Below are positions 6,978-16,012 of a DNA stretch of 64,000 nucleotides, in pieces; the first letter of the stretch is position 1; each line of letters begins with the position of its first letter. A program made the position numbers and the translations under genes. The DNA lies in NCBI GenBank assembly GCA_030295235.1, contig AP026162.1, positions 1,736,001-1,800,000 of the forward strand, written 5' to 3'. Source of the stretch: Fistulifera solaris. Lineage: Eukaryota. The notes below the pieces were generated by a model. The model had not been told where the DNA came from, did no database searches, and was given only the letters and a program-made list of their open reading frames with translations.

Positions 6978-8385
6978 TCAGTTACAATATCTACACCTTA
7001 GCGATCTTTGCCAAAAGAAGCCGCTATCGCTCAGTATTCGCGATGATTCCATATTGTTGTTGCTGGACAACTTGGGTACGAAGCGCACGGTCCCTGGTAT
7101 GCTACCTTCTTTCAAAATTTCGTTCCATCCCTGTTCCTCACAACCATTCACTCCGGACCAATCAAAGGAAAGTTCGATAACCGATGCTTGGGAAGGATAC
7201 GTATCAAGAAGCCATTTCACCACTCCTTCATTCTGATCCTCAGAAAGTGAACACGTTGAATACACCAAATGCCCCCCTTTCTTCAACAACCGAAAACCGT
7301 TCGACAATAGAGACCGCTGCAAGTCAACAAGTCTACGGAGTTCTTCTTCATCTGTCAACACAGGAATAGAAAGTGACTCGGATGTCTCTGGTTTTGTCGT
7401 ACCGACAAAAACACCGGCTTGCTTTGCCAGTTGTCTCCGAACGTGCTTGAGCGAACCGTCGGTGCTACATTCAACGTCGACAAGGACACGGTCAAAAAGC
7501 TTAACTGGAACATGACTCAGCGAACTCTCTCCGGCTTGACTCGCTTGACGATCCACGTCGACTAGTTCCTTAAGTCGCTTTCGTTCTCGTCCTTTCGCAC
7601 TCCTGTTTCGACGCTTTCGTCCTTCATCATGAAGGCGTTGTTCCATGCACACAGACGAATCAAATATCAAGTTGGTTGGTTCGGACCCAAACATAGTGCC
7701 ATCATTGTTGTATAGTCGAATCCGTATGCTCTTTCCTTCTTTGCTGCCAATATAGGGAACGACTTGATGCTTCTCGATAATTTTCCGGCATGTCGACAAA
7801 CGAGATTCTGAACAGTCAACACCAATCACCGTAGCTTCCTCGGAATTATCCGAAAGAACATTTTTCCGTAAGTAGTCTGAAATGGCACATAGTTTTAAAC
7901 CAGGGGCACAGCACAAGTCAAGGATCCTCAAAGGTACCTGGGGTGAATCGTTGCCCTTAATACGATCGCAGTGCGTAGACAATAATGCGGCAACGGCTGC
8001 TCCGGAGCTGACCTCCTGTCCATATATTCTCCCTTCTTTGTAACAAGATGATTGTGACAGTCGAAAATCCCCCGGTAGTGAATAGAAACCAAAACTCTTG
8101 TGCAACCACGAAATCGGATGGGGATATTTGGAGTCTGGTGGCAGTTCCGTCTATCGAGAAGGAAAGAGTGAATGTGAGAAGCTCTTGCAGCTTCATCGTA
8201 TAGGTTATCAAATGACTCACCTGGAGAAGTTTGAGCGTCTCGTCACCATCAAAGGCAGGATTCAGTCGGATATGCCGGTCGGCAAGGACGAGTTTCTCCT
8301 TTAACAGATCGTTTACATCAATGCCAAATTGTGCATAGTAAGCTCTTAGCTTTGCCGCGTGATCCGCCGTTTGTGGCTCGGACAT
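6978..8385 (-). CDS. NOL1/NOP2/Sun (RsmB/RsmF-like) RNA m5C methyltransferase
   Basis: ILDLCCAPGLK, FDRVLVDVECSTDG, LVYSTCSL..QNEGVV. Intron 8151-8220. Confidence 0.9.
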
Positions 8386-8809
8386 GGAATAAACCAGAGG
8401 AACGAATGTATTAGATGCTCGTAAATAAAGAAAGACTATATTCGGTTGTTTATAATTCCCTTAGGGTGCAATGGAGTTATTACCGGAGTATTATTTTTTG
8501 TTCATTTTGCGTTTTGTCGTCTCCCCTCAGACTTTTTGTCGTTCCGTGATTCACTTGCACATAGTAACGTTTTGCTACGACATCACGTAGAATCTTACGT
8601 CTTTTGCTACTGAAAGAAAGGCTTGGTCCCGGACCTCGTTCTCGCAGTTCTGCGAAGCATTTCGACGTCAACCAAGATGCTCATTTCGCATGCACACGCC
8701 ACTTCCTTGCGTGAACTGTTTGATCTCTTCATTTTGATCAAAACGCTCATCTTTCTATTCATATTTCTGTTTTGAGTTGCTTCTTTTGCCACGTGAAGAA
8801 GACGACACC

Positions 8810-11302
8810 ATGGCTCGACCGAACGAAAAGAATCGCAAAACGAAAAAGGTCAGTTCCTCGCAAAATGACAATGACGAGGTAACAAATGACGAGCCCGAAG
8901 TATGGGATGTCATCAAGGTCATAAATCCGAAAGATGATGATAAACCGACCTGTCGTTCGAAACGATGCAAGAAAACGGCCGTGGCGGTTTGGGCCGCGAG
9001 TCACCAGCCGGAGGACGAATGGCCCGTCTGCGAGAAGTGTCAACTCGCGGAATTCGGTGGATGGCCCGAGGGCGTTGAACCCCGGAAGACGACGACGATG
9101 AGCCAGTCGGAACGGAGGAAGATGATGCAAGCAAGAAAACGACCAAACGCTCCGTGAGCCCTGGAAATGCCGCTGATAGCGATAAACCTGAAAGCAATGA
9201 CGAAACAACTACTCCTACAGACGAGCAATCGAATGGCGATGAGGAAGAACAGTGGCAATTGTCGGAGATTCTGTCCAAAGAGGCTGTGACGGGGCGCGGT
9301 CACCGCAAGTGTATGACAGACGATTGCAAAAATCGGGCAGCGTGCGTCTATGTGTCGACGAAAACTCCAAAAGAAAAGTGGTATACGTGTCTTGATTGTC
9401 AGGTAAGGAAACATCTCTTCATTGCAAATTGTTAAGTAAACATTTTAAAAGAACCTTTACTCACGTAACTCCCAGGAATCGGACTTTGGTGGATGGCCCG
9501 ATGCTGACGAACTTCCGGTCAATGTCATGACAGATGAACATAAAGACGCGCTGATCAAGCATTGCGCGAAGAAATCCGATATTGACATGCCTCTTTTTGG
9601 ATCGAAGACTCCGAAAAACACCGGAAAGGCCCGGGCTATCAGTCCCGACATGGCTGACGAAAACGGCGTCAACGATCCAGATACGCCGGAGCACGATGAA
9701 GACGACGAATGGGAGGCCGAAGAAGTTTGGGACCTCGTGAAAATTATCGGTATCGACGCTCTATTGATTGACAGTCCGGTCAAGTGTTCGACTGAAACCT
9801 GCCTACTCCCAGCTGCCTGTGTCTATGTTTCATCGCAAGCTCCGACGGAAAAGTGGTACACGTGCCTCGACTGCCAGGTAAGTCTTTCTCATCGCAAACG
9901 AAACTTATTGCGTTGCTTCAGCACAAACTGACAGTAATCATGTCATCTTCTGCAATCCAGGAAAAAGATTACGGCGGATGGCCTGATCTCGACGATCTCC
10001 CGGTCAAGTCCCTTTCTGATGAGCATCAAAAAGTTTTGAAAGAAAAGTGTTCGAACAAGCCAAACATCAAGATGCCCGTAGTCGATCCGAAGACGCCGTG
10101 TGACAAAAACCAGCAGCAGATAACTAACAATTTCTTCTCTTTTGATGATGCACCGGACGGTACACAGTGCGGAACTGGCGATGATATCAACCTTGTCTCA
10201 CCCGTTCCAACGGCTCCTGACAAAGCAAAAAAGCAACCCAGCAAGGAGGCTTTGGCGTTGCACAAGAAATGGCTTGAGGAGGCGGAAGCACTGGGTGGAC
10301 CTGGTGCTCGAATCATTGTCAGCAAACCAGCCGCGAAGGAAAAGATTTTGGAAACGATGTTCGATGCTTTCCGTCCCATGAATATCACTGAAATCTTCCA
10401 GGTAAGTCGGCAGTCTTCCACATTCAATTTGTCTTCGAAATACACCGCTCCTACTAAAACTGCCAATGAAACTTTACAGGTTCATAAAGGGGCTATTCCG
10501 AAGCCCGTTTTGAAATCGTGTTTGGACGACATGGTCAAGGGCAAGACCAATCCGTTCGACGATAGCGACTCAGAAGAAGCCAACCAGGAAATCTCTGACA
10601 ACAAACCCTCAACTTCGGATCACTTCGCAGGGTCTCTGTTTCTAAAAGCAGGGAAGAGTTCGAACGCGTCTGTTTACTATGTCGACTACAACAAGGCAAA
10701 GAACGGCAACGGACTTGATGCCGACGAGCGAAATGACCTTTACGCGAAGAGTACCCAAGCTGTGCTAGAGGAAGAAGACCTCCAAAACAAAAATCCGATC
10801 GACTAAAGATAGCGCTAAGGAAATCTTCTCCCAACCGACAAACGAAGAGCTTGTTGTCCGTCTTGACGAAGCCGAAGCCAATCTTCTAGAGATTACCAAA
10901 AAGGTTGAAGAGGCACGGCAGCTGAAGGTGAACGAGAAGCATAAAGAGCAGACAAAACGCCGGATTGAGCACTTTGCAACTGAATGGCGCAAGCGTCTTC
11001 GTCTGACGATGGATTTCCTTCACACGATGGAAGAAGTATCCGATGGCACAGTTAGCGCAAAGAAGTGTCTTTCTGGTGACGGACAGATCGAGATGGATTC
11101 AGATGAAGTCGCTGTGAAACAGGCTCTCGCACTTGCAAAGAAAAAGCATTCCGGTCCTCCGCGGCCATTGAAAAGAAGCAAGACCAAGGGGACGGAAACC
11201 AGCGATGGTATTGCCCCGAGCAAGAACTTTATTGCGGTTCGTCTAAACAGCCAGGGTCGAGTTGAGCGAGTTCTCCTTGATGATGGAAATGATGTCGAAT
11301 AA
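8810..11302 (+). CDS. HOP2: HOP2/TBPIP (PSMC3IP)-like protein with three N-terminal Cys-rich repeats
   Basis: Winged-helix start AKEKILETMFDAFRPMNITEIF, then a coiled coil, then EWRKRLRL and GQIEMDSD (HOP2 has EWRKRKRM and GIETDE). Introns 9403-9475, 9878-9960, 10402-10479; indels near 9140 and 10790. Confidence 0.75.
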
Positions 11303-11378: not shown

Positions 11379-12673
11379 TTAGAACCACCCTTCAAACGAA
11401 ACGTCTTCACTTCTCTTCTTCCATTTGTATGAATTGAGTAGGCTGGGGATCATGATAAACGATAAACTCAAGAACAAGTTAGCCTCGTAGGGAAAGTCGA
11501 AAAACGTTTCGCCGTATTTGATTGCGTACGATGCGACGGCACACCCCGCAAACAGCTTGAAAAGAAAATTGTAGTCGTCATCTTTCTCTAAAACTTGGCC
11601 AAGATCTTCAAAGCCGACCAATGATTCATTGTCAAAAACTTTTCATTCTTTGCCATTTCACGCTTCTTTGTGTCGGTCACAAAGGTCGACAGCAATGGCA
11701 CGTCTGTCGTATATCCATTCGAAAAAGCGATGCGGAATGCCGCATAGGCAGCTGTTGTGTTACCCACACAGGTGAGAAGTGCTTGCAAAGGAACAAGAAA
11801 TGGAATCTGGTTGTAAAAGAGATGGTATGTGCAAGCCGTAATGCCCGACGAATGTAACGGCAAGAGACCCCACGTAAGACCCTTCCATCGTGGATTCTTC
11901 ACAACTGAACTCCATTTCCAACAGAATCCCATGGCCGCTAGAAACTCGACCAGTGACGAAATATGAATGATCCAGCAGCCAATAGATAGAGCATTTTCTG
12001 GCTCCGACTTTAGGCCGAGTGTCGTTCCTATCGTAGCAGGAATGTCCATGAACCCACCGAGGTAGGGGAGTGTGCACGGTAGCTCCTGCGACCGCTGGCA
12101 CCGCGGCTGTGATACTCGCGAGTGCCGTCAAAGCGACGACGAGCCATGTCATGGGAGCGTAGCTAGTAGCGGACTGTGGCGGCGGCAAGCCTTGTTCTTT
12201 GGCCCGCAACGCCTGTCGAAAGGCGATGACCGTGACGAGATTGGTCATGGTCAGCAAAGATTCGGCCGATCCATGCAGCCAATCGGAATCGGCCAACGAG
12301 ACGCCGTACAAGACTTTTGCTGCAATCGCGGCGGGTATCGTAAGGAATACAAAAAGTAGGCATGTCGCAAAGCCCACTGTCACACCTTTGGGCGTTTCGT
12401 TCTCGGGGCGATCGAGAAAGTAAAGAAACGCCAGATAGGGAAAGAGCGAGGCACCAAAAATGGCCCGGCGAGTGCTTCGGCTGTATCGGCGTCCATATTC
12501 GCTAGCAAAGTAGTCCATTGACCAGCATCCGCCAGCTCTGGCAACGCATGGTGTTGACGATTGGCATGCAGCAACGCTCTCGATGCGATAGGAGTGATAA
12601 AACACGTCACCCTTTGAAAGCTGAAAGACAAAAGCAACAGGAGACAGTAGCAAGCAACGCCTTTCGTGCTCAT
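11379..12673 (-). CDS. Plastid membrane protein, DUF3593 + Ycf49/DUF2499 fusion (frameshifted)
   Basis: Signal peptide ending VTC-F. DUF3593: SLFPYLAFLYFL..TPK..TIPA..YG.SLADSDWLHGSAESLLT. Ycf49-like: NALSI.CWIIHISSLVEF..WKGLTWG.LP..ACTYHLFYN. Confidence 0.75.
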
Positions 12674-12916
12674 GATAGTCCTTGTCATTTATCAACAAAG
12701 TGAAGGAGAAATACTAATCGTGGATGGCAACCACAGCAACCTTTTGAAGAAGATGATGATATTCATCATTCGTCATTCGCAATAATAAACGCCAACGAAG
12801 AGCGGCTCATGACTCATGATTCTACCTCAGCAAATCCAGTCATGTGAAGAGGTAATCTACACTTTAGGAGATAGTAATGGAGTTGGCGGACGAATACGGT
12901 ACTCACAGGAGTTATA

Positions 12917-13110
12917 CACGTTCACAGAAAATGTGGGGACGTGGTAAAATGTGGGCATGTGGTTTTTTCACGAGGAGTCGTCCAGAAAATGTGGGGATGT
13001 GGATTTTCCACGTCTTCAGAGAATGTGGAGAATGTGGGCATGAGGTTTTTCACGTCTCCAGAAATGTGAGGATGTTGTTATTCACTTCTCCAGAAAATGT
13101 GAGGATATGT
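12917..13110 (+). repeat. Degenerate short repeats (CAGAAAATGTGGG-like), related to the adjacent satellite
   Basis: About seven AATGTG(G/A)G cores between 12928 and 13103. Confidence 0.7.
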
Positions 13111-13142
13111 TTTTTTGTCCCAAGAGGTATATGAACAAGCCA

Positions 13143-14350
13143 TGGACCAGTGTTTTCTCGATCCTACCGAACTGCTGTGCCCTTTCCAAACATACTGGAC
13201 GCGGTGTTTGGTGTCACGATTTTAATTGTGGTGAACGTTCCAATAATTCTGGAAAGTGTGTTTTTATCATAACAGAAGAAAGTGGGCGTTCCAGAAATTC
13301 TGGATCATTTATTTCCCTTCATACAGAATTCTGTGCTGGTCCAGAAATTCTGGACCAGTGCTTTTTCGATCCTACCGAACTACTGTGCACGTTCCAGAAA
13401 TACTGGACGCGGTGTTGGTGTCACGACAAATGTTGTGCACGTTCCAATATTTCTGAAAGTGTGTTTTGATCAGAACAAAAGAAAGTGGGTGTTCCAGAAA
13501 TTCTGGATCATTTATTTCCCGTCATACAAAAATTCTGTGCTGGTCCAGAAATTCTGGACCAGTGCTTTTTCGATCCTACCGAACTGCTGTGCACGTTCCA
13601 GAAATACTGGACGCGGTGTTTGGTGTCACGACGAATGGTTGTGCACGTTCCAGTGTTTCTGAAAAGTATTTCCCTTCATACAAAAATTCAGTGCTGGTCC
13701 AGAAATTCTGGACCAGTGCTTTTCGATTCTACCGAACTGCTGTGCACTTTCCAGAAATACTGGAGGCTGTTTTTGTGTCATGACGAATTGATGTGCACGT
13801 TCCAGTATTTCTGAAAGTGTGTTTTGATCAGAACAGAAGAAAGTGGGCGTTCCAGAAATTCTGGATCATTTATTTCCCGTCATACAAAAATTCTGTGCTG
13901 GTCCAGAAATTCTGGAAACCAGTGCTTTTTCGATCCTACCGAACTGCTGTGCACGTTCCAGAAACACTGGACGCGGTTTTTTGTGTTATGACGAATTGTT
14001 GTAGACGTTCCAGTATTTCTGAAAGTGTGTTTTGATCAGAACAAAAGAAAGTGGGTGTTCCAGAAATTCTGGATCATTTATTTCCCGTCATACAAAATTC
14101 TGTGCTGGTCCAGAAATTCTGGACCAGTGCTTTTTCGATCCTACCGAACTGCTGTGCACGTTCCAGAAATACTGGACGCGGTGTTTGGTGTCATGACGAA
14201 TTGTTGTGCACGTTCCAGTATTTCTGAAAAGGTTGTTTTGATCAGAACAAAAGAAAGTGGGTGTTCCAGAAATTCTGGATCAGTTATTTCCCGTCATACA
14301 AAAATTTTGTGCTGGTCCAGAAATTCTGGACAGTGCTTTTTTCGATCCTG
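13143..14350 (+). repeat. ~205-bp higher-order tandem satellite (~6 units), each of four ~50-bp subunits carrying a TCCAGAAATTCTGGA-type palindrome
   Basis: TGGACCAGTG-type anchor at ~13143, 13351, 13555, 13709, 13914, 14120 and 14327. One unit lacks a subunit (spacing 154). Confidence 0.95.
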
Positions 14351-15367: not shown

Positions 15368-15571
15368 AGGTTTCGAATACATCGATGCTCGAAGGGGACT
15401 ATTGACTTTTTACAACAAACACCTAGCACTGCTTTACTACAGCATTAGAATCAAAATAGTAACTGAACCGTAAATCTATCTAGTGTAAATTTCGTGTCTT
15501 TTAACGGATACGAATAATGCGATTTGCAGTAAAATACAGTAGACTAGACGACATTAGTTTCAGGTACGACC

Positions 15572-16012
15572 TGTCACAGAATATCTGCAAGACAACAAAC
15601 CGAGTCCAGAATTTTTGGACTTGCCACAGAATTTCTGTATGACAACCAACCGAGGTCAGAATTACTAAAAAAACGACCGAGTCCAGAATTTCTGTAAGAC
15701 CAACAACCAACCAGGTCCAGAACCAGAACTTCTGGACCAGTCACAGAATTTCTGTAAGACCAACAACCAACAAGTCCAGAATTTCTAGACCAGTCACAGA
15801 ATTTCTTTAGGATTAACAACCGATTCCGAAATTTTCGGACCGTTCACAAAATTTCTGTAAGATCAACAACCAACCTGGTCCAGAATTTCTGGACTCTTCA
15901 CAGAATTTCTGTATTACCAACAACCTAGTCCAGAATTTCTGGACATCCTACTGAATTTCTGTATGACAAACAACCTAGCCCAGAATTTCTGGTAATTCAC
16001 AGAATTTCTGTC
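15572..16012 (-). repeat. ~52-bp tandem minisatellite (~8 units), reverse-complement relative of the 13-14 kb satellite
   Basis: Consensus GTCCAGAATTTCTGGACCAGTCACAGAATTTCTGTA(A/T)GAC. Its reverse complement closely matches GTCATACAAAAATTCTGTGCTGGTCCAGAAATTCTGGAC in the left array. Confidence 0.9.

What the first reader, a model, noticed from the sequence alone, without database searches (positions are those of the whole stretch)
10300..11150. HOP2-like meiotic recombination factor in a probable diatom
The spliced C-terminal part follows HOP2 in order: RP-x-N winged helix, coiled coil with PTNEEL, EWRKR, IE.D. From memory (needs checking), diatom meiotic-toolkit surveys reported MND1 but not its partner HOP2. 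The long N-terminal extension and an acidic insert in the winged helix could hide such a gene from BLAST.
Basis: partly seen in the sequence, partly recalled or inferred. Interest (0 to 1): 0.7.

Follow-up and report, generated by a model that had tools for sequence, protein, structure and literature searches.

The report
Diatom HOP2-like meiosis gene (SIG7)
This is a real diatom gene of the already published sex-induced SIG7 family, very probably the divergent diatom version of the meiotic pairing protein HOP2, and it carries extra zinc-finger-like repeats whose job is unknown.

Summary
The gene is real: four exons at 8810-11302 (+), about 750 aa. Its two frameshifts are assembly errors. It is the orthologue of Seminavis robusta Sro587_g171310, the sex-induced gene SIG7/M3.

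The identity claim holds and gains support. The family hits TBPIP weakly (17 of 96 members). The predicted core matches Hop2 structures first. S. robusta SIG7 with S. robusta MND1 passes complex prediction (0.70 against best control 0.01; a like complex is solved). The genome holds a separate MND1 and RAD51, and no DMC1 was found.

The parts
8810..11302 (+). SIG7/M3-family gene (divergent HOP2), 4 exons, about 750 aa
   Evidence: model of 751 residues without stops; second copy at G000:C2, 89% nucleotide identity over the region
8810..9402 (+). exon 1; one base missing from a C run at 9079 (assembly error)
   Evidence: the C is present in the C2 copy and in contigs of run X1 at depth 26.4 of 26.4
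8897..9068 (+). Cys4 repeat 1 (short form, ends at FGGWP)
   Evidence: repeat HMM, 43 bits
9247..9572 (+). Cys4 repeat 2 (long form), split by intron 1
   Evidence: repeat HMM, 107 bits
9403..9475 (+). intron 1, GT-AG, phase 0, directly after CLDCQ
   Evidence: inferred from splice signals and homologue alignment, no RNA joint seen
9722..10057 (+). Cys4 repeat 3 (long form), split by intron 2
   Evidence: repeat HMM, 110 bits; a homologous unit folds at pLDDT 95-98
9878..9960 (+). intron 2, GT-AG, at the same place in the repeat as intron 1
10237..10326 (+). family-conserved helix and GG loop just before the winged helix (PSKEA...IVSK)
   Evidence: H, W, A, GG, I, K conserved in about 85-97% of rows; helix H2-15 in the model
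10327..10686 (+). HOP2-type winged helix, split by intron 3 and the acidic insert
   Evidence: TBPIP hits in homologues; 62 of 64 residues of 2mh2 aligned at 1.3 A
10402..10479 (+). intron 3, GT-AG, 78 nt (in frame here, 77 nt in the C2 copy)
   Evidence: absent from spliced homologues
10534..10629 (+). acidic insert between helix 3 and the wing
10711..11030 (+). three coiled-coil segments with kinks at PTNEE (10835-10849) and NEKH (10931-10942); EWRKR at 10982-10996; one extra A at 10789-10791 is an assembly error
   Evidence: helices 135-171, 175-203, 206-240 of the model; the extra base is absent from the C2 copy, X1 contigs and P0019
11031..11104 (+). capping region ending in IEMDSD
   Evidence: touches MND1 in the complex model
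11105..11299 (+). family-specific C-terminal helix, basic linker and beta-hairpin (NFIAVRL...ERV)
   Evidence: F, V, L, G, R conserved in 82-97% of rows that reach it; strands 301-306 and 312-316; touches MND1 in the model

Best explanation
The gene encodes the diatom HOP2 orthologue (SIG7/M3). Its C-terminal 330 residues form a winged helix, three kinked coiled-coil segments and a cap. These pair in parallel with the separately encoded MND1 (predicted here, not shown by experiment). As in other eukaryotes, the two winged helices would capture duplex DNA and the capped end would bind the recombinase filament, promoting homology search in meiotic prophase (inferred from the family). As no DMC1 was found, the filament served would be RAD51 (inferred). 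The N-terminal 0-3 Cys4 repeats are an accessory zinc-binding module on flexible acidic linkers. Most likely they tether the complex to a protein or chromatin partner rather than to bare DNA, since they are acidic and Trp-rich (weakest step, inferred).
Against: No TBPIP hit on the window's own pieces; 79 of 96 members miss TBPIP at E<=0.1, and LZ3wCH is not among the 25 of 57 families shown nor hit by any of 30 further members. The PDB sequence match to Giardia Hop2 is not significant (E 6 and 1). The Foldseek E-value is above 0.001, and unrelated winged helices (Z-alpha, TtgV) lie within 1 Z unit. The Atlas recognition value was below its mark (1778 against 2300). A Hop2-Mnd1 complex is solved, so the complex pass may come from memory, and it was run on the S. 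robusta pair, not on this genome's proteins. No reciprocal search against canonical HOP2 sequences and no tree could be made. No expression data exist for this copy.
Confidence: 0.88

Rival explanations
1. The N-terminal repeats are divergent PARP-type zinc fingers (Cys4 instead of CCHC) that bind DNA breaks and bring HOP2-MND1 straight to SPO11-made ends, making up for the missing DMC1 pathway. This is a rival for the repeats only.
Confidence: 0.15
2. The repeats read a histone mark or another methylated or basic peptide, as CW and PHD fingers do, and place HOP2-MND1 on chromatin. This is a rival for the repeats only and one special case of the best explanation.
For: Invariant or near-invariant Trp, Tyr and acidic residues (W57 42 of 42, W73 40 of 42, D62 41 of 42, D67 40 of 42) and acidic net charge. 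UniRef labels the Cyclotella member 'CW-type domain-containing protein'.
Against: zf-CW and PHD are not among the Pfam families shown for family members, and no such fold is listed. The aromatic residues may be core residues; I could not inspect the model's surface.
Confidence: 0.2
3. SIG7 is a HOP2-derived protein that has left recombination for another role in gametangia (chromatin or transcription), or it is a divergent second MND1-like paralogue.
For: It diverges far faster than diatom MND1, which still matches Giardia Mnd1 at E 9e-36 while SIG7 matches Giardia Hop2 at E 1-6. MND1 is not induced during sex in Skeletonema while SIG7 is. The review notes MND1-independent activity of mouse HOP2.
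Against: A full-length, in-register interface with MND1 is predicted; the kink and cap residues are near-invariant; TBPIP, not Mnd1, is the family hit; SIG7 against MND1 profiles gives probability 0.3%.
Confidence: 0.1
4. This copy is a pseudogene broken by two frameshifts.
For: Frame breaks at 9079 and 10789-10791 in the window.
Against: Both lie in homopolymer runs; both are absent from the C2 copy, which has two other homopolymer indels; contigs of run X1 restore both at full depth; P0019 has the same sequence with the frame open across the second.
Confidence: 0.02

Closest known systems
SIG7 / marker M3 of diatoms (S. robusta Sro587_g171310 = CAB9513363.1; P. multistriata 0010180; S. marinoi STRINITY_DN12692)
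   Same: Same architecture end to end: Cys4 repeats, winged helix with acidic insert, kinked coiled coil, cap and tail; 29% identity over 685 columns to the S. robusta protein and 35-46% to other named diatom members; one locus per genome copy.
   Different: Three repeats here (one short, two long) against two visible in S. robusta; expression of this copy is untested.
HOP2 / TBPIP / PSMC3IP (Pfam PF07106 plus PF18517; Giardia structure 4Y66)
   Same: Winged helix, then three zipper segments with two kinks, then a cap; predicted parallel heterodimer with MND1 including contact of the two winged helices.
   Different: About 750 aa against 231 for the Giardia chain; about 430 aa N-terminal extension with Cys4 repeats and an extra helix; 27-67 aa acidic insert in the winged helix; about 65 aa extra C-terminal helix and hairpin; no DMC1 found in the genome.
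MND1 (PF03962)
   Same: Same overall fold class.
   Different: A canonical MND1 lies on C25 and C26; SIG7 gets no Mnd1 hit among the families shown and profile probability is 0.3%.
PARP-type zinc finger (PF00645), for the repeats only
   Same: Similar order of secondary structure and four ligand positions; weak structural match.
   Different: Cys4 instead of CCHC, C-x4-C first pair, no basic signature, acidic; no sequence-profile similarity.

Membership tests
SIG7/M3 | Sequence orthology to Sro587_g171310 | tested here: met
   no tree was built
SIG7/M3 | Induced during sexual reproduction | not testable with these tools
   No run on record as RNA holds the stretch; published only for other species
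HOP2 | TBPIP-type winged helix (PF07106) | tested here: met
   Met at family level: 17 of 96 members at E<=0.1, two of 41 over the cut-off; 1.3 A over 62 of 64 residues to 2mh2. Not hit by the window's unspliced pieces; the spliced protein was not scanned.
HOP2 | Three leucine-zipper segments with two kinks after the winged helix | tested here: met
   helices 135-171, 175-203, 206-240 in the model of P0017
HOP2 | LZ3wCH capping domain (PF18517) | tested here: inconclusive
   No Pfam hit; the Atlas ranks LZ3wCH clusters first at 0.90; short helices follow zipper 3
HOP2 | Heterodimer with MND1 | tested here: inconclusive
   Prediction passes (0.70 against 0.01), but a like complex is solved and binding is not shown
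HOP2 | Distinct from MND1, with MND1 present | tested here: met
HOP2 | dsDNA binding and stimulation of RAD51/DMC1 strand exchange | not testable with these tools
   needs biochemistry
HOP2 | Reciprocal best hit or clade with canonical HOP2 | not tested
   No canonical HOP2 sequences were fetched; the 150 listed hits (of 658) all score E<=3e-34 and the tail was not visible
zf-PARP (repeats) | C-x2-C...H-x2-C ligands and E-Y-A-K-S-x-R-A-x-C signature | tested here: not met
   C-x4-C...C-x2-C and no signature
zf-PARP (repeats) | Fold of three strands and three helices around one zinc | tested here: inconclusive
zf-CW (repeats) | Pfam or fold match to CW fingers | tested here: inconclusive
   One automatic UniRef label; not listed in the Pfam or fold outputs

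The most novel reading that the evidence does not exclude
Diatoms kept HOP2-MND1 after losing DMC1 and rebuilt HOP2 by adding one to three zinc fingers of PARP-like fold that aim the complex at meiotic breaks or marked chromatin, so that RAD51 alone can do the homologue search. The repeat would be an undescribed zinc-finger family and a built-in targeting module not known, to my recall, in other HOP2 proteins.
Probability: 0.25. Interest if true: 0.75.

Novelty: new member of a known kind. Interest (0 to 1): 0.4.

Why it matters
Two diatom surveys state that HOP2 is absent and treat MND1 as an orphan; later papers only presume that SIG7 is HOP2 and ask for confirmation. The fold matches and the predicted SIG7-MND1 dimer make that question directly testable. 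They also give a function to M3, the one sex marker shared by centric and pennate diatoms and used on ocean metatranscriptomes. Patil 2015 lists worm, fly and Neurospora as lacking DMC1, HOP2 and MND1 together, so a lineage with HOP2-MND1 and RAD51 but no DMC1 would be a useful natural test of what the complex does for RAD51. The gene family itself is not a new discovery.

Tried and rejected
Pfam on the window's unspliced pieces: no relevant hit. TBPIP and LZ3wCH scans of the genome do not find this locus. PDB sequence searches with family profiles: only non-significant hits, Giardia Hop2 at E 6 and 1. The profile search of 1.84 billion proteins found 658 hits at E<=0.001 but listed only the best 150, so canonical HOP2 in the tail could not be seen. 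Repeat: Foldseek, its VIA second look and the Atlas gave nothing usable; the repeat was folded inside a 296-residue protein, not alone, so no claim of a new fold is made. zf-PARP homology by sequence was tested and not found. The viral scan for zf-PARP gave one weak locus, which was left out. No RNA holder was listed; run X1 covers the introns without joints and so looks like DNA; X2 and X3 laid nothing. Attempts to place divergent members outside diatoms failed for lack of names. Earlier findings of the scan: none on this gene. Pseudogene reading rejected.

Full report
The observation. They belong to a larger gene: ATG at 8810, GT-AG introns at 9403-9475, 9878-9960 and 10402-10479, stop at 11300-11302. 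The model has 751 residues. The introns are inferred from splice signals and from alignment with homologues; no RNA joint was seen.

The frame breaks are errors. The window's frame breaks at 9079 and at 10789-10791, both in homopolymer runs. The genome holds a second copy on C2, 89% identical over the region, that lacks both breaks and has two other homopolymer indels. Contigs of run X1 add the missing C at depth 26.4 of 26.4 and drop the extra base at 13.5 + 18.9 of 32.4; X1 may be the data behind the assembly, so it is a check of the letters, not independent biology. P0019, from a public assembly, reads through the second break.

What the gene is. Homologue searches returned 5 and 98 proteins; all named ones are from diatoms, centric and pennate. 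One is S. robusta Sro587_g171310.1. Two window pieces match it at E 2e-21 and 4e-29, and it finds only this locus and the C2 copy in the genome. That gene is SIG7 and marker M3.

What is in print. Patil 2015 (PMC4647503; passages) lists Hop2 and Dmc1 as not found in six diatoms and says Hop2 is either highly diverged or replaced. Ferrante 2019 (PMC6678668; passages) calls Hop2 absent and names SIG7, unannotated, as up-regulated 5.7 log-fold in sexualised Skeletonema. Bilcke 2020/21 (bioRxiv 10.1101/2020.03.16.987719 and PMC8027222; one passage each) reports an InterPro Hop2 domain in three species and says more work is needed. Bilcke 2025 (PMC12618581; passages, section 7 and rows of supplement 3) calls M3/SIG7 a presumed distant homolog of HOP2, expressed in gametangia and present in centric and pennate diatoms. 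I saw only vegetative values for M3, mostly under 1 CPM but up to 11 in a few samples; its main supplement was too large to read. A 2026 preprint (10.64898/2026.03.25.714164; passages) uses 'Hop2 like/0010180'. The idea is therefore published as a presumption.

The partner. The genome has a canonical MND1 in two copies, 93% identical to a named diatom MND1. S. robusta MND1 and SIG7 residues 370-704 were folded together: score 0.70 in the median of three runs, best of three controls 0.01, at least 94% agreement of contacts, partner pLDDT at least 77. The mark was reached by 51 of 78 solved and 2 of 108 mismatched microbial pairs, and by 71 of 105 solved and 2 of 126 unrelated eukaryote pairs. 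The register is parallel (MND1 86-104 with SIG7 516-533; 160-174 with 587-601), the winged helices touch, and the family's C-terminal hairpin also touches MND1. My alignments were not used by the tool. Since the Giardia complex is solved, the pass shows likeness to HOP2-MND1 and does not show binding.

The recombinase. The Rad51 profile scored 10 candidates and gave 11 matches on three pairs of contigs. One pair scores 340-409 bits and the tested copy is closer to RAD51 (367 bits) than to DMC1 (285-288 bits). The other two pairs score 25-58 bits, the level of paralogues, and were not classified. No DMC1 was found, in line with Patil 2015; the search gives lower bounds.

Mechanism. Shown by sequence: gene structure, family membership, repeats. 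Predicted: HOP2 fold and dimer with MND1. Inferred from the family: capture of duplex DNA by the winged helices and binding of the recombinase filament by the capped end; mammalian HOP2-MND1 stimulates RAD51 as well as DMC1, so service to RAD51 alone is plausible. Speculative: targeting by the repeats.

Verdict. A true, very probably intact diatom HOP2 orthologue, but a member of a family already flagged in print as HOP2-like. The added value is the structural and complex-prediction support and the undescribed repeats. Interest 0.4.

Noticed in passing
window 6978-8460 (-): An RsmB/NSUN-type RNA methyltransferase gene (PF01189, E 6e-21) lies head to head with this gene, a few hundred bases from its start; the two may share a promoter region.
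   Followed up: no
window 11379-12713 (-): A gene with DUF3593 and DUF2499 domains spread over two or three reading frames ends tail to tail with this gene; the frame changes may be further assembly indels.
   Followed up: no
window 12928-14349 and 15568-16011: Arrays of tandem repeats with periods near 51, 101-104, 153 and 204-207 bases, possibly a satellite or non-autonomous element.
   Followed up: partly
window 9079 and 10789-10791; L007 2590 and 4596: Four one-base homopolymer indels in two copies of one 2.5 kb gene: apparent pseudogenes in this assembly need a check against reads.
   Followed up: yes
G000 C1/C2, C25/C26, C27/C29, C15/C16, C19/C20, C9/C10: Most genes searched occur on two contigs; for this gene the copies are about 89% identical. 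This suggests a hybrid or allodiploid genome, which makes retention of both HOP2-like copies of interest for pairing of diverged chromosomes.
   Followed up: no
window 11105-11299: A conserved C-terminal helix and beta-hairpin beyond the IE.D motif, where canonical HOP2 ends (recalled); it touches MND1 in the complex model. No separate fold search was made.
   Followed up: partly
P0060, P0122 and relatives: Family members without Cys4 repeats, with a Lys/Ser-rich N-terminus instead, including Extubocellulus spinifer.
   Followed up: partly
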